Assembly (NCBI RefSeq): GCF_013315695.1
Contig: NZ_CP054353.1
From: Escherichia coli
GTDB lineage: Bacteria > Pseudomonadota > Gammaproteobacteria > Enterobacterales > Enterobacteriaceae
DNA: 64,000 bases
Reading direction: 5' to 3' (one strand)
Under the pieces are notes generated by a model. That model was not told the origin of the DNA. It did no database searches and saw nothing but the letters and a program-made list of their open reading frames with translations. Position 1 is the stretch's first letter, and each line of letters begins with the position of its first letter. Shown here piece by piece: positions 1 to 57,948 of this stretch. The translations under genes were made by a program, and so were the position numbers.

Positions 1-4153
<4,153 letters not shown>

Positions 4154-6812: not shown

Positions 6813-8315
6813 ATGACGACCGACCAACACCAGGAGATCCTCCGCACCGAAGGATTAAGTAAATTTTTCCCCGGCGTCAAAGCGTTAGACAACGTTGATT
6901 TCAGCCTGCGCCGTGGCGAAATCATGGCGCTGCTTGGTGAAAACGGGGCGGGAAAATCAACGCTAATCAAAGCATTAACTGGTGTATACCACGCCGATCG
7001 CGGCACCATCTGGCTGGAAGGCCAGGCTATCTCACCGAAAAATACCGCCCATGCACAACAACTCGGTATCGGCACCGTCTATCAGGAAGTCAACCTGCTA
7101 CCCAATATGTCGGTTGCTGATAATCTATTCATAGGTCGCGAACCCAAACGTTTCGGCCTTCTACGCCGTAAAGAGATGGAAAAGCGCGCCACCGAACTGA
7201 TGGCATCTTACGGTTTCTCCCTCGACGTGCGCGAACCGCTTAACCGTTTTTCGGTGGCGATGCAGCAAATCGTCGCCATTTGCCGGGCTATCGATCTCTC
7301 CGCCAAAGTGCTGATCCTCGATGAACCCACCGCCAGCCTCGACACCCAGGAAGTGGAGCTATTATTTGGCCTGATGCGTCAGTTGCGCGATCGCGGCGTC
7401 AGCCTGATCTTTGTCACTCACTTTCTCGATCAGGTCTATCAGGTCAGCGATCGGATCACCGTCTTACGCAACGGCAGTTTCGTAGGCTGTCGGGAAACGC
7501 GCGAGCTACCGCAGATCGAACTGGTAAAAATGATGCTGGGGCGCGAGCTGGATACCCACGCGCTACAGCGTGCCGGGCGAACATTGTTGAGCGACAAACC
7601 CGTTGCCGCGTTCAAAAATTACGGCAAAAAAGGAACGATAGCACCGTTTGATCTCGAAGTGCGCCCCGGCGAGATCGTCGGTCTGGCTGGCTTGCTGGGA
7701 TCCGGACGTACCGAAACCGCCGAAGTGATCTTCGGTATCAAACCTGCTGACAGCGGCACGGCGTTGATCAAAGGCAAACCGCAAACCCTGCGATCGCCAC
7801 ATCAGGCTTCAGTACTGGGCATCGGATTCTGCCCGGAAGACAGGAAAACCGATGGCATCATCGCCGCTGCCTCGGTGCGGGAAAATATCATCCTCGCTCT
7901 CCAGGCCCAGCGCGGCTGGCTACGACCCATTTCCCGCAAAGAGCAGCAAGAGATTGCCGAACGCTTTATCCGCCAGCTTGGCATTCGCACACCTTCAACT
8001 GAACAACCGATTGAATTTCTCTCCGGTGGCAATCAGCAAAAAGTGCTGCTTTCACGTTGGCTACTGACCCGACCGCAATTTCTGATCCTTGATGAGCCAA
8101 CCCGTGGCATTGATGTTGGTGCCCACGCCGAGATCATCCGCCTGATTGAAACGCTGTGTGCTGACGGTCTGGCGCTGCTGGTGATCTCCTCCGAACTGGA
8201 AGAGCTGGTGGGCTATGCCGACCGGGTGATCATCATGCGCGATCGCAAACAGGTGGCGGAGATCCCGCTGGCACAGCTTTCCGTTCCGGCGATCATGAAC
8301 GCCATTGCGGCGTAA
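6813..8315 (+). CDS. ytfR: Sugar ABC transporter ATP-binding protein, duplicated ATPase domains (500 aa)
   Basis: Two Walker A motifs (GENGAGKST; second domain GLLGSGRTE) and LSGG signature motifs. Confidence 0.93.
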   Translation: MTTDQHQEILRTEGLSKFFPGVKALDNVDFSLRRGEIMALLGENGAGKSTLIKALTGVYHADRGTIWLEGQAISPKNTAHAQQLGIGTVYQEVNLLPNMSVADNLFIGREPKRFGLLRRKEMEKRATELMASYGFSLDVREPLNRFSVAMQQIVAICRAIDLSAKVLILDEPTASLDTQEVELLFGLMRQLRDRGVSLIFVTHFLDQVYQVSDRITVLRNGSFVGCRETRELPQIELVKMMLGRELDTHALQRAGRTLLSDKPVAAFKNYGKKGTIAPFDLEVRPGEIVGLAGLLGSGRTETAEVIFGIKPADSGTALIKGKPQTLRSPHQASVLGIGFCPEDRKTDGIIAAASVRENIILALQAQRGWLRPISRKEQQEIAERFIRQLGIRTPSTEQPIEFLSGGNQQKVLLSRWLLTRPQFLILDEPTRGIDVGAHAEIIRLIETLCADGLALLVISSELEELVGYADRVIIMRDRKQVAEIPLAQLSVPAIMNAIAA

Positions 8316-8325
8316 GGAGAACAGT

Positions 8326-9351
8326 GTGATGCCTCAATCTCTCCCTGACACTACGCCGCCAAAAAGGCGTTTTCACTGGCCGACGGGGATGCCGCAGCTG
8401 GCGGCACTGTTGCTGGTGCTGCTGGTCGATAGCCTGGTAGCCCCGCATTTCTGGCAGGTGGTGCTTCAGGATGGGCGTTTGTTCGGTAGCCCTATCGACA
8501 TTCTTAACCGTGCAGCTCCCGTTGCGTTACTGGCGATTGGTATGACGCTGGTGATCGCCACCGGTGGTATCGATCTCTCTGTGGGGGCGGTGATGGCTAT
8601 CGCCGGAGCCACAACGGCTGCGATGACGGTCGCGGGATTCAGCCTGCCGATTGTTTTGTTAAGCGCCCTGGGCACCGGCATCCTGGCGGGATTGTGGAAC
8701 GGCATACTGGTAGCGATCCTCAAAATTCAGCCGTTTGTCGCCACCCTGATCCTGATGGTCGCCGGGCGCGGCGTGGCGCAACTGATCACCGCCGGGCAGA
8801 TCGTCACGTTTAACTCGCCGGATCTCTCATGGTTTGGCAGCGGATCGCTGTTGTTCCTGCCAACGCCGGTCATTATCGCGGTGCTGACGCTTCTCCTGTT
8901 CTGGCTGTTGACCCGCAAAACGGCGCTGGGGATGTTTATCGAAGCCGTTGGTATCAACATTCGGGCGGCAAAAAATGCCGGGGTAAACACGCGAATCATC
9001 GTCATGCTCACCTACGTGTTGAGCGGGCTATGTGCGGCGATTGCGGGCATTATCGTGGCGGCGGATATTCGCGGTGCCGATGCCAACAACGCCGGATTAT
9101 GGCTGGAGCTGGACGCCATTCTCGCGGTGGTGATTGGCGGCGGATCGCTGATGGGCGGGCGCTTTAACCTGCTGCTCTCGGTAGTGGGGGCGCTGATTAT
9201 TCAGGGGATGAACACCGGAATTTTGCTTTCGGGCTTTCCGCCGGAGATGAACCAGGTGGTGAAAGCGGTGGTGGTGCTTTGTGTGCTGATTGTTCAGTCG
9301 CAACGCTTTATCAGTCTGATTAAAGGAGTACGTAGCCATGATAAAACGTAA
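8326..9351 (+). CDS. ytfT: ABC transporter permease (341 aa from GTG start)
   Basis: Polytopic membrane ORF; GTG at 8326 gives the K-12 length; overlaps ytfR end. Confidence 0.88.
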   Translation: MMPQSLPDTTPPKRRFHWPTGMPQLAALLLVLLVDSLVAPHFWQVVLQDGRLFGSPIDILNRAAPVALLAIGMTLVIATGGIDLSVGAVMAIAGATTAAMTVAGFSLPIVLLSALGTGILAGLWNGILVAILKIQPFVATLILMVAGRGVAQLITAGQIVTFNSPDLSWFGSGSLLFLPTPVIIAVLTLLLFWLLTRKTALGMFIEAVGINIRAAKNAGVNTRIIVMLTYVLSGLCAAIAGIIVAADIRGADANNAGLWLELDAILAVVIGGGSLMGGRFNLLLSVVGALIIQGMNTGILLSGFPPEMNQVVKAVVVLCVLIVQSQRFISLIKGVRSHDKT

Positions 9352-40002: not shown

Positions 40003-41818
<1,816 letters not shown>

Positions 41819-47270: not shown

Positions 47271-47355
47271 GCCGAAGTGGCGAAATCGGTAGACGCAGTT
47301 GATTCAAAATCAACCGTAGAAATACGTGCCGGTTCGAGTCCGGCCTTCGGCACCA
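47271..47355 (+). tRNA. leuX: tRNA-Leu (anticodon CAA), 85 nt with long variable arm
   Basis: Sequence gccgaagtggcgaaatcggtagacgcagttgattCAAaatcaaccgtagaaatacgtgccggttcgagtccggccttcggcacca. Confidence 0.95.
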
Positions 47356-47889
47356 TCTACATTTTCCTCTTGAAAAACAAGCGATTAAGTAAATTATTTT
47401 ACCTTTTTTGCCTATCTAATCTTCACTGATTCTTTCCCGTATAAAAGCCACTGTGATTGTTAATGGCTTTGGTATGTTAGCACGCAGTGGCAAGTAGTTA
47501 CCAGGCTCAACCTTGTACTGCATACGCCAGTATGCCCCCCTTTGAAGCAGGAAGACGCGCCGCCGTCTCTAAACCTATGCCAAGCACTTTTAACCGTTCC
47601 ACACTTAGTTCGGCGTTCCGTTCAAGCCTGTCGTGGTGACTTACCACGAATAAACAAGCAAATTCGCGGTATGGTATTCGTTACGAGAGCGGTTAACTGA
47701 CAAGACTCCTGTGATACGCCTAAGGTGCTTAAATTGATGCGTCCAACATGGCACAAAAGGCGGTCTATCGTTTAATTTTGCTCCATACATCAACTGGCAT
47801 TGCCAGCTGTATGGGGCTTGGTCTGCTGGTTCCGATGAACGGATTAAATTGCTAAGATGCAGACCATAAGCCATAAGGCGGAGATAAGT

Positions 47890-49098
47890 ATGAAATCTGT
47901 AGAACTATTTGCCGGTGCTGGTGGCTTGGCTATGGGTTGCGAAATTGCTGGTTTTGAGCATCTTGCAGTCGTTGAATGGGATAAATGGGCCTGTGATACC
48001 GTTAGAGAGAACAAAAAGAATGGCTTTCCGCTGTTGTCTGATTGGGATCTTTTTGAGGGTGATGTAAGAGAATTTGATTGGTCGAAAATCCCTAAAGGGA
48101 TTGACCTTCTTGCGGGAGGGCCACCTTGCCAGCCATTTTCAATCGGTGGTAAGCACAAGGCTAATTCTGATTCGCGGGACATGTTTCCAGCGACAGCAGA
48201 AGCGATCAGGCAAATTCGCCCTAAGGCTTTCATCGTCGAGAATGTGAAAGGCTTAACACGGGCAACCTTTGCGAGCTATTTCCAGTACATCCAGTTACAG
48301 CTTGAGTTTCCAGAAGTAGCCCCGCGAAATGGCGAAGACTGGAGCGAGCATTTAAAACGCTTGCAGGAAGAAAAAACCAGTGGAAAGAACAAAGGGAGAG
48401 GGCTGACGTATAACGTTCTGGCTACGTTAGTCAATGCAGCAGACTACGGCATCCCACAAAAACGTGAGCGTGTCTTCATTGTTGGCTTCCGCGATGATCT
48501 TGAAATTGAGTGGTCGTTCCCTAAACCGACACACAGTTATGATGCACTCGTTTATGATCAGTGGGTTACTGGTGATTACTGGAAACGACATGGTTTAGAA
48601 ATGCCAACTGTTCCAAGCCAGATGGTTAACCGTATCGCAAAATTGCGTAAAAATCCTCCCGATACACTTCCGTGGAAAACTGTTCGAGATGCAATCGCGG
48701 ATTTGCCAGATCCTGAAACAAAGGCGGCAAAGATGATCCGGAATCATGCGTTCCAGGCGGGGGCACGAACTTATCCCGGTCATACCGGAAGCCCCTTAGA
48801 TCTGCCAGCTAAAACGCTCAAAGCAGGTGCTCATGGCGTTCCTGGGGGCGAGAACATGCTTGTTCGTGATGATGGCTCAGTACGCTATTTTACTGTGCGA
48901 GAAAGTGCCAGAATTCAAACATTTCCCGATAGTTATCGTTTTCACGGGAGTTGGACTGAAACTATGAGGCAGTTAGGTAACGCTGTGCCGGTTCATTTGG
49001 CGTATTGCGTTGCCAGCAGTGTAGCGGAAAAGCTGCTGACCTCTGAAATTGGGAACATCCTTAAGCAGGGTGGCAATTATAAAAGGGCTTCTGCATGA
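47890..49098 (+). CDS. DNA (cytosine-5)-methyltransferase, Type II R-M modification subunit (~402 aa)
   Basis: C5-MTase motifs I FAGAGG, IV PPCQPFS, VI ENV, VIII QKRERVFIVG, X GNAV; SD GGAG upstream of ATG 47890 (ORF track starts at 47857). Confidence 0.85.
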   Translation: MKSVELFAGAGGLAMGCEIAGFEHLAVVEWDKWACDTVRENKKNGFPLLSDWDLFEGDVREFDWSKIPKGIDLLAGGPPCQPFSIGGKHKANSDSRDMFPATAEAIRQIRPKAFIVENVKGLTRATFASYFQYIQLQLEFPEVAPRNGEDWSEHLKRLQEEKTSGKNKGRGLTYNVLATLVNAADYGIPQKRERVFIVGFRDDLEIEWSFPKPTHSYDALVYDQWVTGDYWKRHGLEMPTVPSQMVNRIAKLRKNPPDTLPWKTVRDAIADLPDPETKAAKMIRNHAFQAGARTYPGHTGSPLDLPAKTLKAGAHGVPGGENMLVRDDGSVRYFTVRESARIQTFPDSYRFHGSWTETMRQLGNAVPVHLAYCVASSVAEKLLTSEIGNILKQGGNYKRASA

Positions 49099-49745
49099 CA
49101 GGAAAGGTCATACCATTTAATCCACTTGATAAACAAAATTTAGGTGCCAGCGTTGCGGAAGCCTTATTGAGCAAAGATGCTCATCCTCTGGAGGAGTTAA
49201 CCTCATTTCAAGGAGCAGGGATTTACGCAATTTATTACACTGGCGATCATCCTGCTTATAGGCAACTGGCAGAACTGAATCGTGACGGGCAATTTCGATT
49301 GCCTATCTACGTGGGTAAGGCCGTCCCAGCAGGGGCGAGAATGGGGCTTACCAACCCTGATAAGGTTGGTAACGTTCTGTTTAGGCGCTTGAAAGAACAT
49401 GCAGAAAGTATTCGCGCAGCGGAAAATCTTTCGATTGAAGATTTTTATTGTCGATTTTTGGTTGTTGATGACATCTGGATCCCATTGGGAGAATCGCTGG
49501 TTATCTCTCGCTTTAAACCGATTTGGAATTCGTCTATTGATGGTTTCGGTAATCATGACCCAGGTAAGCATCGCTACACTGGTTTACGTCCTCGCTGGGA
49601 CTTTATGCACCCGGGGAGAGGATGGGCTCAAAATTTACGTGAGCGTGATGAAACTGTGGATGAACTCATTCGTGATTCTATACAGTATCTTCAGAATTTA
49701 CCGCCTTGCTTGGCTCAGAAATTTATCGAAGCTGAAGGCGATTAA
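49095..49745 (+). CDS. GIY-YIG-family restriction endonuclease, Eco29kI/Cfr42I-like (216 aa)
   Basis: GIY...YVG motif (GIYAIYYTGD...RLPIYVGKA); start overlaps the MTase stop (ATGA). Confidence 0.65.
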   Translation: MTGKVIPFNPLDKQNLGASVAEALLSKDAHPLEELTSFQGAGIYAIYYTGDHPAYRQLAELNRDGQFRLPIYVGKAVPAGARMGLTNPDKVGNVLFRRLKEHAESIRAAENLSIEDFYCRFLVVDDIWIPLGESLVISRFKPIWNSSIDGFGNHDPGKHRYTGLRPRWDFMHPGRGWAQNLRERDETVDELIRDSIQYLQNLPPCLAQKFIEAEGD

Positions 49746-49866: not shown

Positions 49867-50442
49867 TCAAATATCAGGGAGTTGCAAGAACGACTTAAGT
49901 CGGTAGAAGGTTGCTTTGCTGATCTCTAACCTATCCTGGACCGCTGCTGGTGGTAATCCTCGTGCTAATAACTCACGTACTTGTTCAACGGTTGCTTTGA
50001 TCGGTCTGCCGCAATGCTTACCTTCCGACTGAGCTCGTTTGATTCCTGCGGCTCTACGCTCTGCGATTAGGTCTTTTTCCAGGCTGGCAAGTCCTGCCAT
50101 CATAGTGAGCATGGCTTTACCCACTGGTGTTGAAAGATCAAACCCCTCTCGCAAGCTGACAACCTTCACACCCTTCATTTGCAACATTTCAACAGTAGAT
50201 AGTACATCGATAGTGTTACGTCCCAAGCGGTTTATAGCAATCACGATCAGCGTATCGCCTTCTCGCACATAATTGAGTAGTTCAGCAAACCCTGGACGCT
50301 CTCCTGCCTTGATTGCACCACTCACCGCTTCATCACTAAACCAGCGAGTTACGCTATAACCAGCATCGGCTATCTGCTTCTTCTGGTTTTCAACGTTTTG
50401 ATCGCTGGTGGAAACTCGCACATATCCGATCACAGTTGTCAT
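49867..50442 (-). CDS. Serine recombinase, resolvase/invertase family (191 aa)
   Basis: N-terminal catalytic motif IGYVRVSTSDQ and C-terminal HTH. Confidence 0.85.
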   Translation of the reverse strand: MTTVIGYVRVSTSDQNVENQKKQIADAGYSVTRWFSDEAVSGAIKAGERPGFAELLNYVREGDTLIVIAINRLGRNTIDVLSTVEMLQMKGVKVVSLREGFDLSTPVGKAMLTMMAGLASLEKDLIAERRAAGIKRAQSEGKHCGRPIKATVEQVRELLARGLPPAAVQDRLEISKATFYRLKSFLQLPDI

Positions 50443-52790: not shown

Positions 52791-53711
52791 TTGATTCAAG
52801 CATACGAAGACGGCTATTTTTACAGAGATACCCCGCACCACGATCACTGCCCGCTTTCAGCATTTTCCAGACCATCCCAGCAATTCATCGTTATTGATAA
52901 TGTTCTGTACGTTGTCGAAGTGGAAAGTGGTGAAATTCTTCACTACGACTCGACAGAGTATTTGCTTGATGGTGGCATTGTTCAGGATCTGCATTTGAGT
53001 TACTCGACAGCAGACACCGCCAAATCAAAACAGGCTCACCGTGAATACGCTAATAAGCTGGGCGACCTTCCAGGGAATGCAGCCTATAACGGGATCAAGG
53101 AATACGCAGACGTATTAAGCAAGCCAGATTTCAAGAAAGTATTTGCATTGTGTCAGGAAGTAGATAGACGCAATGTAGTGTTTATAAAACGTGCGGATTT
53201 GAGCATAATACTGAACACCACGCCGGATCATCTCAATCGTGTATTATCTGCTCTTGAACGTAAGCACTACATCAAAGTTGATAAAGCTGAACACCAGAAA
53301 GGAGTATTAAAACTGTGGGTTAATCCTTCGTTTGTCTGGAAGGGTGATTCAGCTAACCGCTACTTATCTGGATATTTGCAGGGCTTCCCAATCTTGGAAC
53401 GTAAACGCTCCACAAAACGTTCTGACGTGCTCGACACGCTCACGGCTGCTGCAATGGTTGCCTTTGATACCTGGCACATTGAACACGGTTATAAGGCCAA
53501 TCAGCCTCATTCTAATGAATGGTATGCAGAGATCACGATGTACGAAAACGCCTACGGCGAAGGGGTGAGGCTTGCAGCAGAAAATAAGACATTGAACAAG
53601 TTATTGAACCCGGCAACATCTGAGGGGGATTTCGTTTATGAGCTATTCACTACGGCACAATACAGGGAATACCTGCAAACATTGGCAAAACAAGTAAGGA
53701 GATTACACTGA
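52791..53711 (+). CDS. Hypothetical protein (306 aa, TTG start) with possible winged-helix region
   Basis: SD AGGAGG at 52781..52786, TTG at 52791; N-terminal His/Cys cluster (HHDHCP); central helix-rich segment; no recognised catalytic motif. Confidence 0.6.
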   Translation: MIQAYEDGYFYRDTPHHDHCPLSAFSRPSQQFIVIDNVLYVVEVESGEILHYDSTEYLLDGGIVQDLHLSYSTADTAKSKQAHREYANKLGDLPGNAAYNGIKEYADVLSKPDFKKVFALCQEVDRRNVVFIKRADLSIILNTTPDHLNRVLSALERKHYIKVDKAEHQKGVLKLWVNPSFVWKGDSANRYLSGYLQGFPILERKRSTKRSDVLDTLTAAAMVAFDTWHIEHGYKANQPHSNEWYAEITMYENAYGEGVRLAAENKTLNKLLNPATSEGDFVYELFTTAQYREYLQTLAKQVRRLH

Positions 53712-53995
53712 ACCAATGTTTTGTAATAAAGAAGCCAGCACAATACTTATTTGAACTAAATTAAGCAACTCTCATACACACCGCTCTTTTGGTGAGTTAT
53801 TTATTACTATCTTTAAGGTGATGAGTGTTTATACTGTATTAAATTATTATAAATAAGGGGATGGTGTATGATTACAGCTCTTTATTGGTGTTTGTTCTTT
53901 CAGTTTGCGCTGTATTTTTTGTCTAAATTAAATTTAAATTGAAAATTAGCCCTGATCTTGAAATAGTTCAGGGCTGGAATTTCTAAAAAATAACA

Positions 53996-54955
53996 TCAGT
54001 GTGCTTTTAGTTCATCTTTAGCTAATGAGTCATAGAGTATTTTTGTGAGCGGAGACTCTAAATAATCATCACTAAGTAGTTTAATAAAATGCTTTTGGGA
54101 TTCTTTTGTTTTTACGAGCAATTGTGTGCCGTCTTCACTTACAATTAAAACTGTTGAAAGATAGGTATGCTTGCTTACATAATCGATAATTTCTGGCACA
54201 TCAATTTTCCCCAGTACAGGTGAGTGTTTGGCAATTTTGGCAAGCTTCCTTGAGAAAGAAATTTCTTTTGCACTCTTCTCAAGGTGAGTAAGATCTTCGA
54301 TAAGCAATGAAGCTTTCAATGCTTCCAAAGCCACCGTTGCTTGAGCTTCAATAACCTGATGGAACTGCATCGTTATTTCTAAAGTTTTTTGATTTTTTAT
54401 CAGGAATTCGTCGTCTATAAGAGCCAAGTCATAATTATAATCTAATCGGAACACTTGGGTTGGCAATTCTTTTAAATACCCGTCTGCGTCTGGTATCAAG
54501 TTAAACAATTTTCGGCTTTGCTCAAAAACCATGAGGTTTGTTTTGTTCTTATACAATGACAAACACTTATTGTTGCCTCTTAACTGAATTATTATCCCTT
54601 TCACGTCAGTAAATTTATTATTTAAATCATAATAATCCTGAGAGTTAGGCGGTATGGCTATTGCATTTTTTATAAAATCAAACTCTTTTGGATGTTCTTC
54701 ATAATCAAATGCAAACAAGGCATTTTTTCTATCATCAAAATTCGAAAGGAGAGGAATGGTTAAATCCTCATTTGTCACAATGTCGTCGTAAAGCCTAATT
54801 TTGAATCCTTCAACAATTTTTGGTAAAGCTTCAGCATCTATTTTAGATAATTTTAATTCATAATTATCTTCAGTTTTAACTATAAAGATAATTCTTATAC
54901 CTGAGAAATTATCGAAAATTTCGGTGATTTGATTTTTAAAATTCACAGGGGTCAT
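53996..54955 (-). CDS. Candidate Kiwa KwaB-like (DUF4868-like) defence protein (319 aa)
   Basis: AT-rich soluble ORF coupled by 1-nt TAATG overlap to the upstream 4-TM protein; assignment is by architecture only. Confidence 0.45.
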   Translation of the reverse strand: MTPVNFKNQITEIFDNFSGIRIIFIVKTEDNYELKLSKIDAEALPKIVEGFKIRLYDDIVTNEDLTIPLLSNFDDRKNALFAFDYEEHPKEFDFIKNAIAIPPNSQDYYDLNNKFTDVKGIIIQLRGNNKCLSLYKNKTNLMVFEQSRKLFNLIPDADGYLKELPTQVFRLDYNYDLALIDDEFLIKNQKTLEITMQFHQVIEAQATVALEALKASLLIEDLTHLEKSAKEISFSRKLAKIAKHSPVLGKIDVPEIIDYVSKHTYLSTVLIVSEDGTQLLVKTKESQKHFIKLLSDDYLESPLTKILYDSLAKDELKAH

Positions 54956-55542
54956 TATTTTTTCCTTGCTATGAAAACGTAGTCATCAAAAAAACTATAG
55001 AATACTTGATCGTCAACAGTCAGCACATCCATCGAGATTGCAATGACGTTTTTTACTTCACCACTTCCTGCATGAGAAATGTTAACTCTATACAACTTAT
55101 AACCGAAAAGCGCCAAAGTAGGATTCGCATAATACTTATCCGTTTTAATGAAAATTAAACCAATAACTACTATTAAGAGAAAGTACGCAATGTTTTTCTG
55201 AGGGTCATCAAAACTGAATCCCATAAAAGGTACTATGTAAGTTGCTAAGAAAGTCAAACTTTCATAGCTCTCACTTTGGCAAGCAGTGATTGTTACACAG
55301 TCAGCATTGTTGACCTTCGTCAATCCTTTAAACCTTCTATAGAAATAAAATGCTATTCCTATAAAAATTAAACAAATTATTGAGATTATGTTGCTGGAAG
55401 CTAATTGATAAAAACCTATAAAATGGCAGGAAGAGCCATAACAAAATGGGATTTTTGCGCTCAAAATGATAATAAAAACAAACAGCAACATTAAAGACAG
55501 TATGTATAGTCCCATCTTGTTGAATGTGCTTTTTCGTTTCAT
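54955..55542 (-). CDS. Candidate Kiwa KwaA-like membrane protein (~195 aa, four predicted TM helices)
   Basis: Four hydrophobic segments; start taken at MKRKSTF with GGGGGA SD (ORF track starts 10 codons upstream). Confidence 0.45.
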   Translation of the reverse strand: MKRKSTFNKMGLYILSLMLLFVFIIILSAKIPFCYGSSCHFIGFYQLASSNIISIICLIFIGIAFYFYRRFKGLTKVNNADCVTITACQSESYESLTFLATYIVPFMGFSFDDPQKNIAYFLLIVVIGLIFIKTDKYYANPTLALFGYKLYRVNISHAGSGEVKNVIAISMDVLTVDDQVFYSFFDDYVFIARKK

Positions 55543-55826
55543 GTTATCCCCCAGTGATGAAATCATAATCAAAACTTGATCATGTGAACATCAAAAGCAT
55601 ACCTTAAAGCACTGGTTTTTTGTACAGCAATCGGCAAATTCATGCGTACTATCGAACTTACAAGAGGACGCATAGTAGATTTTCTGATCCAAATTGCCAT
55701 CATGTACTTTTAATTCATGTAGAGTAGCCAATGAAGTATCAGCAATTACATGATTTTATTGTCTATTTTTTATGTTTTTTTGTAAAACACCAGAAGATTG
55801 AAAAGGGCCAATGAGGCCCCTTGGCG

Positions 55827-56078
55827 TTATTTACGGTTTTTGTTGGATTGAGCCAGCACGGAAGCAGCAAGCTGCTTGGTTAAAGTACTGGAACGTGGAT
55901 TATCCAGCGCCGCAGATGCTTTATGTTCCATTGCACCACTTGTCTGATTTGAGGAACCTTTTTGAGAGAGAGCTGAACCAGCAAGGCTCTTCTGAATTGC
56001 AGATGCGTTGGGGTTGTTTAGGGTTTGTGCTGCGACTGATGCGACTTTACTTGATGTTTGCTTTGAATTGTTAGCCAT
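55827..56078 (-). CDS. Hypothetical low-complexity Ser/Ala/Gln-rich small protein with ~20-aa internal repeats (83 aa)
   Basis: Repeats of A-[AS]-x-[LA]-x-Q (SVAAQTLNNP / SLAGSALSQK / SAALDNPRSS / LAASVLAQSN); no TM segment. Confidence 0.35.
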   Translation of the reverse strand: MANNSKQTSSKVASVAAQTLNNPNASAIQKSLAGSALSQKGSSNQTSGAMEHKASAALDNPRSSTLTKQLAASVLAQSNKNRK

Positions 56079-56309
56079 TCTCAACACCTATTCAAGAAGT
56101 GAATTATTGAACATCTTGTATTTAAATCAAGAATGAATACAAGATGTAGTGTTAATGATAATCCTCACCGCTTCGCTGTGCAACGATGAAAAATCTCTTT
56201 ACTGGATAAAACTACAGTTTTAAAAATGTGCGGTATTTCTGCTTTCAAATTGGCTTAATGTGCATACATTTAGATGATACCACTGCGTTTTCTGATCGTT
56301 ATTCGTTCA

Positions 56310-57587
56310 CTATTTATCAGTTTTCTCACGTTGGGGCTCCGTCTCTATCTCTGGGTAACGTAATAGCTCGATGTATGGCTGTAGTTCAATCGGAGATGCT
56401 GCATTCTTGCTGTACGTCTTGAAACTTTCTGTAGAGCCGCGCTCATGACCCAAGAGAAGTGCGATCCGGTCTTCTGTAACTGGTTTTAACTTACCTCGTC
56501 CAACCCCCCCACGATCCAGAATCTGCGCCACTGCATGGCGTAGACTGTGAAAAACTTTCAACTCTGATCCTACTTCCCCCAATGCCTTACGTTTAGCCCT
56601 CGTAAAACGCTGTGAATGCCACGTAGAGCGCTTTCCATCTGCGCGGTCAGCTATCGACGCACGATAGAATAAAAAGCCGTTATGGGGCTTCTCACGCAGC
56701 GACAAAACCAACGGAGTGATCAGGCTATGCACCGGAATAATACGGGCTGCTGATTTGGTCTTCCCCTCCGTCACTTCGAAACATAACACCCCTTCAATCT
56801 CTCGGATGTTGGCTGCACGTAATGAACAAATTTCATTCAGGCGCATACCGCTATACATCCCGATCAGCGTTACATTTTGCATCTCTTCATCATTCGCCAT
56901 CACAGCGAACACCTTCGCCAATTCTCCAGGCTCAAATACTTCATAACTCACCTTGCTACTTTTGGCCTCCAGCGCATGACCGCGCCAGATGTTTTCTTGC
57001 GGTGCATCGTGGTAGCGATTACGGGCCAGATCCCAGATTTGAGCCAGTGCGCTGACATAGTTTTGTATGGTCTGTGGTGCTTTCTCCGTCTTGAGCTGAT
57101 CAAGCCAGCCTGTAACGGTGGTTCGGTTAACGTCACGAAGCTGAACATCACGCTTTTTCAGATGTTCTAAGAGCACTTCAACAGCCTTGTTTGTCTTCGA
57201 TAGCGTAGTGAGTTTGCGCTTCTCGCTGAACTGCAATAGATAAAGATCACGCATTTTCAGGAGGGATGGCACTCCTTGGGATTGGGTATTGCTCATGACA
57301 TGCTGAACAGGTGTTTCATGAACTCGGGCGCTAACTCTGCGTAGCTCTGCAATTGCCTGCTCAATCTTACTCCCTTCTCTTGGTTTGACCTGTTCCCGTA
57401 AACGTATCCATTCAACAGCGATAGCATCTCTGAACAATCGCGCCTGACGTATGTCACTTGTGCCAGTGCTCTTGACGAAGTAGCGCTTGTTGCCAAAAAG
57501 CGAGCGCATGTAAGCTGGAACGGTAATCCTTACCAGATAGTTTCCGCATGGATCTAAAACTAAGTAACGATCTCTCTTGAAACTCAT
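56310..57587 (-). CDS. Tyrosine site-specific recombinase (island integrase), ~425 aa
   Basis: C-terminal catalytic region with conserved R...HxxR...Y (SLRHAVAQ ... ESFKTYSK); adjacent to island att repeat. Confidence 0.85.
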   Translation of the reverse strand: MSFKRDRYLVLDPCGNYLVRITVPAYMRSLFGNKRYFVKSTGTSDIRQARLFRDAIAVEWIRLREQVKPREGSKIEQAIAELRRVSARVHETPVQHVMSNTQSQGVPSLLKMRDLYLLQFSEKRKLTTLSKTNKAVEVLLEHLKKRDVQLRDVNRTTVTGWLDQLKTEKAPQTIQNYVSALAQIWDLARNRYHDAPQENIWRGHALEAKSSKVSYEVFEPGELAKVFAVMANDEEMQNVTLIGMYSGMRLNEICSLRAANIREIEGVLCFEVTEGKTKSAARIIPVHSLITPLVLSLREKPHNGFLFYRASIADRADGKRSTWHSQRFTRAKRKALGEVGSELKVFHSLRHAVAQILDRGGVGRGKLKPVTEDRIALLLGHERGSTESFKTYSKNAASPIELQPYIELLRYPEIETEPQREKTDK

Positions 57588-57707
57588 GTTCACCCCGGCT
57601 ATTTTGTAAGGGCTTTTACATGGGGAAGTTTCCTGTGTAGATTGTTGGAGCGGCGAATTATTAGCAGTTGATTCAATAGCTTAGATCAGCTTGCTGGACA
57701 AGCGAAC

Positions 57708-57750
57708 ACCGTAGAAATACGTGCCGGTTCGAGCCCGGCCTTCGGCACCA
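57708..57750 (+). repeat. Direct repeat of leuX 3' end (island attR), 43 bp with one mismatch
   Basis: accgtagaaatacgtgccggttcgagCccggccttcggcacca versus tRNA 47313..47355 (T in the tRNA). Confidence 0.9.
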
Positions 57751-57764
57751 TCGGAACATCAATA

Positions 57765-57788: not shown

Positions 57789-57948
57789 TGCCTAAAATCC
57801 AGTATCCGCAAGGCTTTCCTCGCTTTTTCACTCAACCTAAGTCAACCTGATTCAATCTACATCAACTTACTGATGCGGGTACAACTGCGGGTATTTCCCG
57901 GTTCGATAATGTTTGTACCCACACAGAACCCTTGAAAGGATACTCATC

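What the first reader, a model, noticed from the sequence alone, without database searches (positions are those of the whole stretch)
53996..55542. Candidate Kiwa-like two-gene membrane-associated anti-phage module
An AT-rich pair on the minus strand: a ~195-aa protein with four hydrophobic helices is translationally coupled (TAATG overlap at 54955) to a 319-aa soluble protein with no recognisable enzymatic motif. That architecture matches Kiwa (KwaA 4-TM protein plus KwaB DUF4868). It sits in a tRNA-integrated island beside an R-M system, typical defence-island context. I cannot confirm DUF4868 membership from sequence alone, so it may be a different or undescribed two-component membrane system.
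Basis: partly seen in the sequence, partly recalled or inferred. Interest (0 to 1): 0.8.

Follow-up and report, generated by a model that had tools for sequence, protein, structure and literature searches.

The report
Known Kiwa anti-phage system (kwaA–kwaB)

Summary
On the minus strand, a 195-aa membrane protein (54955..55542) and a 319-aa soluble protein (53996..54955) overlap in a TAATG junction. The region is 33% G+C against 50% for the window.

- Both proteins exceed NCBI's curated equivalog cut-offs: KwaA 192.6 bits against 100, KwaB 244.9 against 200.
- Both hit PADLOC KwaA/KwaB models (E = 1e-79 and 1e-116).
- KwaB carries Pfam PF16162 (DUF4868).
- They are 72% and 66% identical over their full length to the cryo-EM/crystal structures of E. 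coli O55:H7 KwaA and KwaB.

The same DNA is 100% identical in five complete E. coli genomes, where RefSeq already annotates it as kwaA/kwaB. The exact KwaB protein occurs in hundreds of public assemblies.

The residues mutated in the published "ECOR49" Kiwa match these proteins in identity and number. This allele has therefore probably already been tested experimentally.

The pair lies on a 10.4-kb integrative island at tRNA-Leu(CAA). The island is bounded by a 45-nt direct repeat and also carries a type II restriction-modification system.

Novelty: already known. Interest is low. The only mildly interesting extra is an allelic swap of kwaB, but not kwaA, between two versions of the same island.

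The parts
54955..55542 (-). kwaA: 195-aa four-TM membrane protein with a cytoplasmic C-terminal beta-barrel, the sensor/scaffold of Kiwa
   Evidence: NCBIfam NF041622 KwaA equivalog scores 192.6 bits against a cut-off of 100. PADLOC PDLC00219 gives 1.4e-79. It is 72% identical to O55:H7 KwaA and matches PDB 9mrg_A at 1.7e-89. RefSeq annotates it as kwaA, WP_000824184.1.
53996..54955 (-). kwaB: 319-aa soluble protein with an N-terminal Rossmann-like domain and a C-terminal DUF4868 DNA-binding domain, the effector of Kiwa
   Evidence: Pfam PF16162 gives 1e-31 over residues 117-304. NCBIfam NF041623 scores 244.9 bits against a cut-off of 200. PADLOC PDLC00233 gives 9.6e-117. It is 66% identical to O55:H7 KwaB and matches PDB 9o0i_H and 9mrx_K at about 1e-131. 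RefSeq annotates it as kwaB, WP_000189294.1.
54953..54957 (-). TAATG stop/start overlap between kwaA and kwaB (likely translational coupling)
   Evidence: Read directly from the sequence.
55547..55552 (-). Shine-Dalgarno-like GGGGGA, 4 nt upstream of the kwaA ATG
   Evidence: Read from the sequence. It supports the ATG at 55542 over the TTG at 55572.
53941..53975 (-). Intrinsic-terminator-like hairpin (AGCCCUGA...UCAGGGCU) followed by AAUUUUC, 20 nt after the kwaB stop
   Evidence: RNA fold gives -16.9 kcal/mol, z = -3.84, with 0 of 200 shuffles folding as well. The simple terminator scan missed it.
47313..47357 (+). attL: 45-nt repeat formed by the 3' part of tRNA-Leu(CAA) (tRNA at 47271..47355)
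   Evidence: Direct repeat family D1. tRNA found by ARAGORN.
57708..57752 (+). attR: second copy of the 45-nt repeat (44/45 identical), closing a 10.4-kb integrative island
   Evidence: Similarity to the E1739 island ends here.
56310..57593 (-). Tyrosine integrase of the island, next to attR
   Evidence: RefSeq calls it a tyrosine-type recombinase/integrase. Precomputed Pfam hit PF00589 Phage_integrase. Weak XerD-family hits.
47857..49745 (+). Type II restriction-modification system on the same island: m5C DNA methyltransferase (47857..49098; RefSeq start 47890) and Eco29kI-family endonuclease (49095..49745)
   Evidence: PADLOC MTase_II 5.2e-135 and REase_II 1.1e-153. TIGR00675 dcm. RefSeq names.

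Best explanation
This is an intact two-gene Kiwa anti-phage defence operon (kwaA-kwaB). It is cargo of a 10.4-kb integrase-bearing island inserted at the tRNA-Leu(CAA) gene of an E. coli chromosome.

The mechanism below is taken from the close homologues studied in PMC11785009. It is inferred here by homology, not shown.
1. KwaA, a four-TM protein with a cytoplasmic beta-barrel, forms tetramers in the inner membrane.
2. Each tetramer binds KwaB dimers, which bridge neighbouring tetramers into a fence-like curved supercomplex.
3. Phage attachment, DNA ejection or conjugation distorts the membrane. KwaA senses this and activates KwaB at the entry site.
4. KwaB clamps incoming DNA non-specifically in the positively charged channel of its DUF4868 domain, without cutting it.
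5. This stalls phage replication forks and so blocks late transcription and morphogenesis, while the cell survives (not abortive infection).
6. DNA-mimic proteins such as lambda Gam can block KwaB. Host RecBCD partly titrates them.

Shown here: the gene pair, its family membership, conservation of the experimentally required interface residues, operon signals and the island structure.

Inferred: assembly, sensing, DNA clamping and defence activity of this particular allele.
For: Family membership:
- PADLOC gives KwaB 9.6e-117 and KwaA 1.4e-79, both nearly end to end on the profiles.
- NCBIfam equivalogs are above their curated cut-offs.
- Pfam PF16162 KwaB gives 1e-31. PF28043 KwaA is precomputed for the identical protein.
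- Full-length matches to solved Kiwa structures: 9mrg, 9mrx and 9o0i.
- Identity to the O55:H7 founder system is 72% (KwaA) and 66% (KwaB).

Functional residues (O55:H7 numbering to this window, residues):
- All KwaA-KwaB interface residues whose mutation abolished defence are conserved.
- KwaA: K75 to K76, N77 to N78, Y181 to Y182, F183 to F184, K194 to K195. D80 to D81 and H156 to H157 are also conserved.
- KwaB: R21, R35 to K38, P100 to P103, N101 to N104, Q103 to Q106, Y157 to Y160.
- Five of the six predicted DNA-contact residues are conserved: N137, R170, D172, K190, R236.

Link to the tested ECOR49 allele:
- The paper's ECOR49 mutant names fit these proteins exactly in residue and number. 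These are KwaA K76A/V77A/N78A and Y182A/F184A/K195A, and KwaB R21A/K38A/Y160A.
- 139/194 = 71.6% identity equals the paper's figure for ECOR49 KwaA against O55:H7.
- The ECOR49 system protected against phage in that paper.

Intactness and selection:
- Both ORFs are full length.
- There is a Shine-Dalgarno motif before each gene, a TAATG overlap and a terminator-like hairpin after kwaB.
- kwaA dN/dS is 0.056 against the E1739 allele.
- The exact KwaB sequence is indexed in 969 blocks of the assembly collection. Nine of the ten loci shown carry an identical KwaA.

Prior annotation: five complete E. coli genomes are 100% identical over the queried stretch 53800..55800 and are annotated kwaA/kwaB.

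Context: an integrative island with att repeats, an integrase and a type II restriction-modification system.
Against:
- Identity with the ECOR49 allele is inferred from residue numbering only. The primer and supplementary tables were not available. One published triple mutant (P102A/N103A/Q104A) does not fit the numbering here (P103/N104/Q106).
- One of the six predicted DNA-contact residues is charge-reversed (O55:H7 R142 to E145). Two minor interface contacts also differ: KwaA Q79 to A80 and T162 to V163, and KwaB N42 to P45.
- The mechanism comes from a preprint version (PMC11785009). Several of its steps are models rather than demonstrations, namely membrane-curvature sensing, replication-fork stalling and the AlphaFold3 DNA and Gam complexes.
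- No promoter was identified above chance level.
Confidence: 0.9

Rival explanations
1. It is Kiwa by descent, but the mechanism differs from the published DNA-clamp model. For example, the KwaA tetramer could act as a gated channel that perturbs ion balance or membrane potential. Alternatively, Kiwa could act mainly by modulating host RecBCD nuclease activity on phage DNA.
For: [quoted passage not shown] Phage DNA levels dropped only about 25%. Gam links Kiwa and RecBCD functionally. Charge reversal at one predicted DNA-contact residue in this allele (R142 to E145) shows the DNA channel is not strictly conserved.
Against: KwaB binds ssDNA and dsDNA without cleaving them, and a six-residue DUF4868 mutant loses binding. 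Kiwa remains active in delta-RecB cells against Gam-less phage. Infected cells survive, which argues against a depolarising abortive mechanism.
Confidence: 0.1
2. It is a decayed or silent Kiwa remnant that no longer defends, carried passively on the island.
For: No promoter was found above chance. One assembly (L013) carries a truncated kwaA next to the identical kwaB, so decay does happen. A neighbouring island gene is frameshifted in EcPF7.
Against: Both ORFs are full length. All residues shown to be required for defence are conserved. kwaA is under purifying selection (dN/dS 0.056). Identical proteins occur in hundreds of assemblies. The residue numbering matches the experimentally active ECOR49 system.
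Confidence: 0.04
3. It is a different or undescribed two-component membrane system that merely resembles Kiwa in architecture.
For: None beyond the architecture. The Pfam-A release used by profile_search gave no significant hit for the membrane protein.
Against: Equivalog-level hits for both proteins. 66-72% full-length identity to solved Kiwa proteins. PF28043 KwaA appears in the precomputed annotations. RefSeq already names both genes.
Confidence: 0.01

Closest known systems
Kiwa of E. coli ECOR49 (functionally tested and mutagenised in PMC11785009)
   Same: All checkable mutant residue names and numbers fit the window proteins: KwaA K76/V77/N78 and Y182/F184/K195, and KwaB R21/K38/Y160. Identity of KwaA to the O55:H7 protein is 71.6%, the paper's own figure. 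The two-gene operon scheme is the same.
   Different: Identity could not be verified directly, because no sequence or primer table was available. The published P102A/N103A/Q104A label does not fit P103/N104/Q106 here. That may be a numbering slip or a small sequence difference.
Kiwa of E. coli O55:H7 RM12579 (founder system; structures PDB 9mrg, 9mrr, 9mrx, 9mtn, 9nyu, 9o0i)
   Same: Same gene order and strand, with kwaA upstream of kwaB and a short overlap. KwaA is 195 aa in both. KwaB has the same two-domain layout. Identity is 72% (KwaA) and 66% (KwaB) over full length. The interface residues required for defence are conserved.
   Different: KwaB here is 4 residues longer, with a 3-residue insertion near residue 26. 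R142 becomes E145 in the predicted DNA channel. The genomic setting differs: in O55:H7 the neighbours are an HsdM-like methyltransferase, a phosphorothioate-dependent endonuclease and type II Zorya.
Kiwa allele in E. coli E1739 (same leuX island)
   Same: The island is collinear, at the same tRNA-Leu site, and 92-100% identical over most of its length. KwaA is 97% identical.
   Different: KwaB is only 73% identical, with saturated synonymous sites (pS 0.76). Nucleotide identity drops to 68-78% between about 53600 and 55000, with the breakpoint at the kwaA/kwaB junction. The E1739 KwaB also has F160 and T190 where this one has Y160 and K190.
Zorya (ZorAB-based membrane-anchored defence)
   Same: It is also a membrane-embedded sensor coupled to a cytoplasmic DNA-targeting effector, found in E. 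coli defence islands. In O55:H7 it lies next to Kiwa.
   Different: No sequence relationship. Neither protein hit any Zor model in PADLOC down to E = 1. Zorya uses a MotAB-like proton-driven motor, which Kiwa lacks (my own knowledge of the Zorya literature).

Membership tests
Kiwa (KwaA + KwaB) | KwaB protein carrying the DUF4868 / PF16162 domain | tested here: met
   Pfam PF16162 gives 1e-31, covering model positions 3-186 of 186. The NCBIfam KwaB equivalog scores 244.9 bits against a cut-off of 200. PADLOC KwaB gives 9.6e-117.
Kiwa (KwaA + KwaB) | KwaA: small inner-membrane protein with four TM helices and a cytoplasmic C-terminal beta-barrel | tested here: met
   The NCBIfam KwaA equivalog scores 192.6 bits against a cut-off of 100, covering profile positions 1-182 of 182. 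The protein is 72% identical, without gaps, to the solved four-TM KwaA. Hydropathy shows three strong segments and one weaker one at the expected positions. The fold itself is inferred from homology; no structure was predicted here.
Kiwa (KwaA + KwaB) | Two adjacent co-directional genes, kwaA upstream of kwaB, forming one operon | tested here: met
   The two genes share one base in a TAATG overlap. There is a Shine-Dalgarno motif before each gene and a terminator-like hairpin only after kwaB.
Kiwa (KwaA + KwaB) | Conservation of KwaA-KwaB interface residues whose mutation abolishes defence | tested here: met
   KwaA K76, N78, Y182, F184 and K195 are present. KwaB R21, K38 (R in O55:H7), P103, N104, Q106 and Y160 are all present (residues).
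Kiwa (KwaA + KwaB) | Conservation of DUF4868 residues predicted to contact DNA (N134, R142, R167, D169, K187, R233 in O55:H7) | tested here: inconclusive
   Five of six are conserved and R142 is replaced by E145. Only the six-fold mutant was tested in the paper, so the weight of this single change is unknown.
Kiwa (KwaA + KwaB) | Assembly into a KwaA-tetramer / KwaB-dimer membrane supercomplex | not testable with these tools
   Inferred from 66-72% identity to the solved complex (9mrx). No multimer prediction tool was available.
Kiwa (KwaA + KwaB) | Protection against phage infection and reduced conjugation, with both genes required | not testable with these tools
   This needs plaque and conjugation assays. 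Five Kiwa systems, including the ECOR49 one that this allele appears to match, showed anti-phage activity in PMC11785009; four of the five also reduced conjugation.

The most novel reading that the evidence does not exclude
Within one otherwise conserved leuX island, kwaB has been exchanged for an anciently diverged allele while kwaA was kept. Between the two island versions KwaB is 73% identical with saturated synonymous sites, and KwaA is 97% identical. The recombination breakpoint sits at the gene junction. This could mean that KwaB is a swappable specificity or anti-inhibitor module. Exchange of the DNA-binding effector, including differences in channel residues (E145 in both island alleles versus R142 in O55:H7; Y160/F160 and K190/T190 between the two island alleles), would let hosts escape phage DNA mimics such as Gam while keeping the same membrane sensor.
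Probability: 0.2. Interest if true: 0.35.

Novelty: already known. Interest (0 to 1): 0.1.

Why it matters
It matters little as a discovery. Kiwa was described in 2018, and its structure and mechanism have since been published. This exact allele is annotated as kwaA/kwaB in RefSeq and is probably one of the alleles already tested experimentally.

Its value is as a positive control for the scan. A reader working from raw sequence alone correctly recognised a defence system from its architecture and context.

The clean 10.4-kb att-bounded island (restriction-modification system plus Kiwa plus integrase) and the kwaB-only allele swap are small but useful examples of how defence cargo is packaged and shuffled in E. 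coli.

Tried and rejected
- Pfam scan of the membrane protein found nothing significant. The Pfam release behind profile_search appears to lack the newer PF28043 KwaA family, which does show up in precomputed annotations. Identification of KwaA therefore rests on NCBIfam, PADLOC and PDB matches.
- I looked for the paper's supplementary primer table to prove identity with the ECOR49 construct. No supplements are held.
- The consensus promoter scan gave 10 sites against 10.1 expected, so no promoter can be claimed. The best-placed candidate is TTTACA-17-GACAAT at 55786..55758.
- The simple terminator scan missed the hairpin after kwaB. Folding the 64 nt after the stop showed it.
- I considered whether the flanking 306-aa wHTH protein (52791..53711) and the small ORF (about 83-86 aa; 55827..56087) are extra Kiwa components. 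They have no PADLOC or NCBIfam hits and are absent next to the O55:H7 Kiwa. I treat them as island genes, not parts of Kiwa.
- I considered rapid diversifying selection as the cause of the kwaB divergence in E1739. I rejected it in favour of allele replacement, because synonymous sites are saturated and the identity profile has sharp edges.
- Structure prediction, fold search and large database searches were deliberately not run. With 66-72% identity to solved structures they would add nothing.

Full report
**Observation**

The minus strand between 53996 and 55572 carries two ORFs. One is 319 aa (53996..54955). The other is 205 aa from a TTG at 55572, or 195 aa from the ATG at 55542.

The ATG at 55542 is the likely start for three reasons. 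It has a GGGGGA motif 4 nt upstream. It is the start used in RefSeq. The resulting 195 aa aligns over residues 3-195 with the solved KwaA chain.

The pair is 32.8% G+C in a 50.0% window.

Hydropathy gives three strong hydrophobic segments and one weaker one in the 195-aa protein, and none in the 319-aa protein.

A hairpin followed by a short U-rich tail (AAUUUUC) lies 20 nt after the 319-aa ORF. It folds at -16.9 kcal/mol with z = -3.84.

**Identification**

Both proteins are members of the Kiwa defence system.
- Against PADLOC, the 319-aa protein matches KwaB model PDLC00233 end to end at 9.6e-117. The 195-aa protein matches KwaA model PDLC00219 at 1.4e-79. No non-Kiwa model appears for either protein.
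- NCBIfam's curated equivalog models are both exceeded: KwaB NF041623 at 244.9 bits against a cut-off of 200, and KwaA NF041622 at 192.6 bits against a cut-off of 100.
- Pfam places PF16162 (KwaB, formerly DUF4868) on residues 117-304 at 1e-31.
- The Pfam release used by profile_search had nothing for the membrane protein. Precomputed annotation of the identical protein lists PF28043 KwaA.
- Against solved structures, KwaB matches 9o0i_H and 9mrx_K at about 1e-131, and KwaA matches 9mrg_A at 1.7e-89. The depositors named all of these 'Kiwa protein KwaA/KwaB'.
- Pairwise identity to the founder system of E. coli O55:H7 RM12579 is 72% for KwaA (no gaps) and 66% for KwaB.

**Prior knowledge of this exact sequence**

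The 2-kb region is 100% identical in five complete E. coli chromosomes: EcPF7, MS15047, NCTC9080, JSWP006 and MINF_7C. RefSeq annotates the genes there as 'anti-phage protein KwaA/KwaB'.

The window is 99.96% identical to EcPF7 over 30.2 kb.

The exact 319-aa sequence is indexed in 969 blocks of the public assembly collection. It always sits in the same arrangement: integrase, 83-aa ORF, KwaA, KwaB, 306-aa ORF. Nine of the ten loci shown have an identical KwaA.

**Link to experiments**

The mechanistic paper (PMC11785009) solved structures with the O55:H7 proteins. It did its point mutagenesis in the Kiwa of E. coli ECOR49, giving both numberings.

Mapping the O55:H7 residues onto the window proteins reproduces the ECOR49 labels exactly:
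- KwaA K76/V77/N78 and Y182/F184/K195.
- KwaB R21/K38/Y160.

O55:H7 has Y at the position of V77 and R at the position of K38. The match is therefore to ECOR49 specifically.

The KwaA identity of 139/194 = 71.6% equals the figure the paper gives for ECOR49 KwaA. The related E1739 allele has F160 and fits less well.

One label (P102A/N103A/Q104A) does not fit P103/N104/Q106. I could not obtain the primer table. 'This is the ECOR49 allele' therefore remains a strong inference, not a demonstration.

**Mechanism (from PMC11785009; inferred here by homology)**

- KwaA forms hourglass-shaped tetramers in the membrane.
- KwaB dimers bridge KwaA tetramers into a curved, fence-like supercomplex.
- Both genes and the TM region are required for defence.
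- KwaB foci form at phage attachment sites before DNA ejection.
- Escape mutations map to tail fibres and to inhibitors of sigma-S.
- KwaB binds ssDNA and dsDNA non-specifically through DUF4868 without cutting.
- Late phage transcription fails and phage DNA drops by about 25%.
- Cells survive, so this is not abortive infection.
- Lambda Gam binds KwaB and competes with DNA, and RecBCD titrates Gam.

In the window proteins every interface residue shown to be required is present. Five of six predicted DNA contacts are conserved. The exception is a charge reversal, R142 to E145. I therefore expect this allele to work in the same way.

I hold the family assignment at about 0.98. I hold the published mechanism, as applied to this allele, at about 0.75. 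The sensing step and the fork-stalling step are still models in the source paper.

**Context**

The tRNA-Leu(CAA) gene lies at 47271..47355. Its 3' 45 nt (47313..47357) are repeated at 57708..57752 with 44 of 45 matches. This repeat delimits a 10.4-kb integrative element.

The island's contents are as follows:
- an m5C methyltransferase and an Eco29kI-family endonuclease (47857..49745; PADLOC 5e-135 and 1e-153);
- a small serine recombinase (49867..50442, minus strand);
- several short hypothetical genes;
- a 306-aa winged-helix protein (52791..53711);
- kwaBA;
- a small ORF (about 83-86 aa);
- a tyrosine integrase (56310..57593, minus strand) next to attR.

Directly after attR a second, degenerate integrase begins at 57913. 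It is broken into fragments. At least two islands have therefore accreted in tandem at this tRNA.

The restriction-modification system lies 4.3 kb from kwaB, not next to it.

**Something extra: the kwaB allele swap**

Strain E1739 carries the same island at the same site. A sliding identity profile is 92-100% over most of the island. It falls to 68-78% between about 53600 and 55000 and recovers exactly at the kwaA/kwaB junction.

KwaA is 97% identical between the two versions and KwaB only 73%. Synonymous sites are saturated in kwaB (pS 0.76), whereas kwaA has dS 0.23 and dN/dS 0.056.

This is allele replacement by recombination, not fast local evolution. It agrees with the paper's remark that KwaA and KwaB phylogenies are partly incongruent. 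It is a tidy example, not a new principle.

**Verdict**

The system is already known, down to this allele's annotation in RefSeq and probably its experimental testing.

Novelty: already known. Interest: about 0.1.

Noticed in passing
window 47313-47357 and 57708-57752: A 45-nt direct repeat (44/45) of the tRNA-Leu(CAA) 3' end brackets a discrete 10.4-kb integrative island. The island carries a type II restriction-modification system, a serine recombinase, Kiwa and a tyrosine integrase. Similarity to the E1739 island stops at the second repeat.
   Followed up: yes
window 53600-55000 versus L003 (E. coli E1739) 7800-9135: Between two versions of the same island, kwaB and its 3' flank are only 68-78% identical in nucleotides (73% in protein, synonymous sites saturated). 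kwaA is 97% identical in protein. The breakpoint is at the gene junction, which indicates replacement of the kwaB allele by recombination.
   Followed up: yes
window 57913-59142 (+): A second, P4-type integrase gene lies immediately after attR. It is broken into three ORF fragments and is annotated as a pseudogene with an internal stop in EcPF7. IS fragments follow it, which suggests an older island accreted in tandem at the same tRNA.
   Followed up: partly
window 54521-54523 (KwaB residue E145): One of the six residues predicted to contact DNA in the KwaB channel is charge-reversed: R142 in O55:H7 is E here, and also in the E1739 allele. The effect on DNA or Gam binding is unknown.
   Followed up: no
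window 52791-53711 (+) and 55827-56087 (-): A 306-aa winged-helix protein and a small protein (about 83-86 aa) flank this Kiwa allele in every assembly inspected. Neither has a PADLOC or NCBIfam hit, and both are absent next to the O55:H7 Kiwa. Their function is unknown.
   Followed up: partly
L013 (GCA_900448165.1) 2732-3001: One assembly has an identical kwaB, but kwaA is called as only 89 aa and mismatches the full-length protein. This looks like a decayed Kiwa copy, showing that the system can be lost by kwaA disruption.
   Followed up: no
window 40003-40298: Self-overlapping BLAST matches offset by about 98 bp (93% identity) indicate a short tandem duplication or repeat. It lies in the holC-pepA intergenic region.
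   Followed up: no
window 31000-33000: A 2-kb stretch of very low G+C (30-37%) lies upstream of the gene RefSeq annotates as argF (ornithine carbamoyltransferase), well outside the leuX island. It was not examined.
   Followed up: no
PMC11785009, section 8: The paper's residue labels are not fully consistent with the sequences. It gives 'V76' for O55:H7 KwaA where the protein has Y76. Its ECOR49 'P102A/N103A/Q104A' does not fit P103/N104/Q106 here. These are probably numbering slips.
   Followed up: partly
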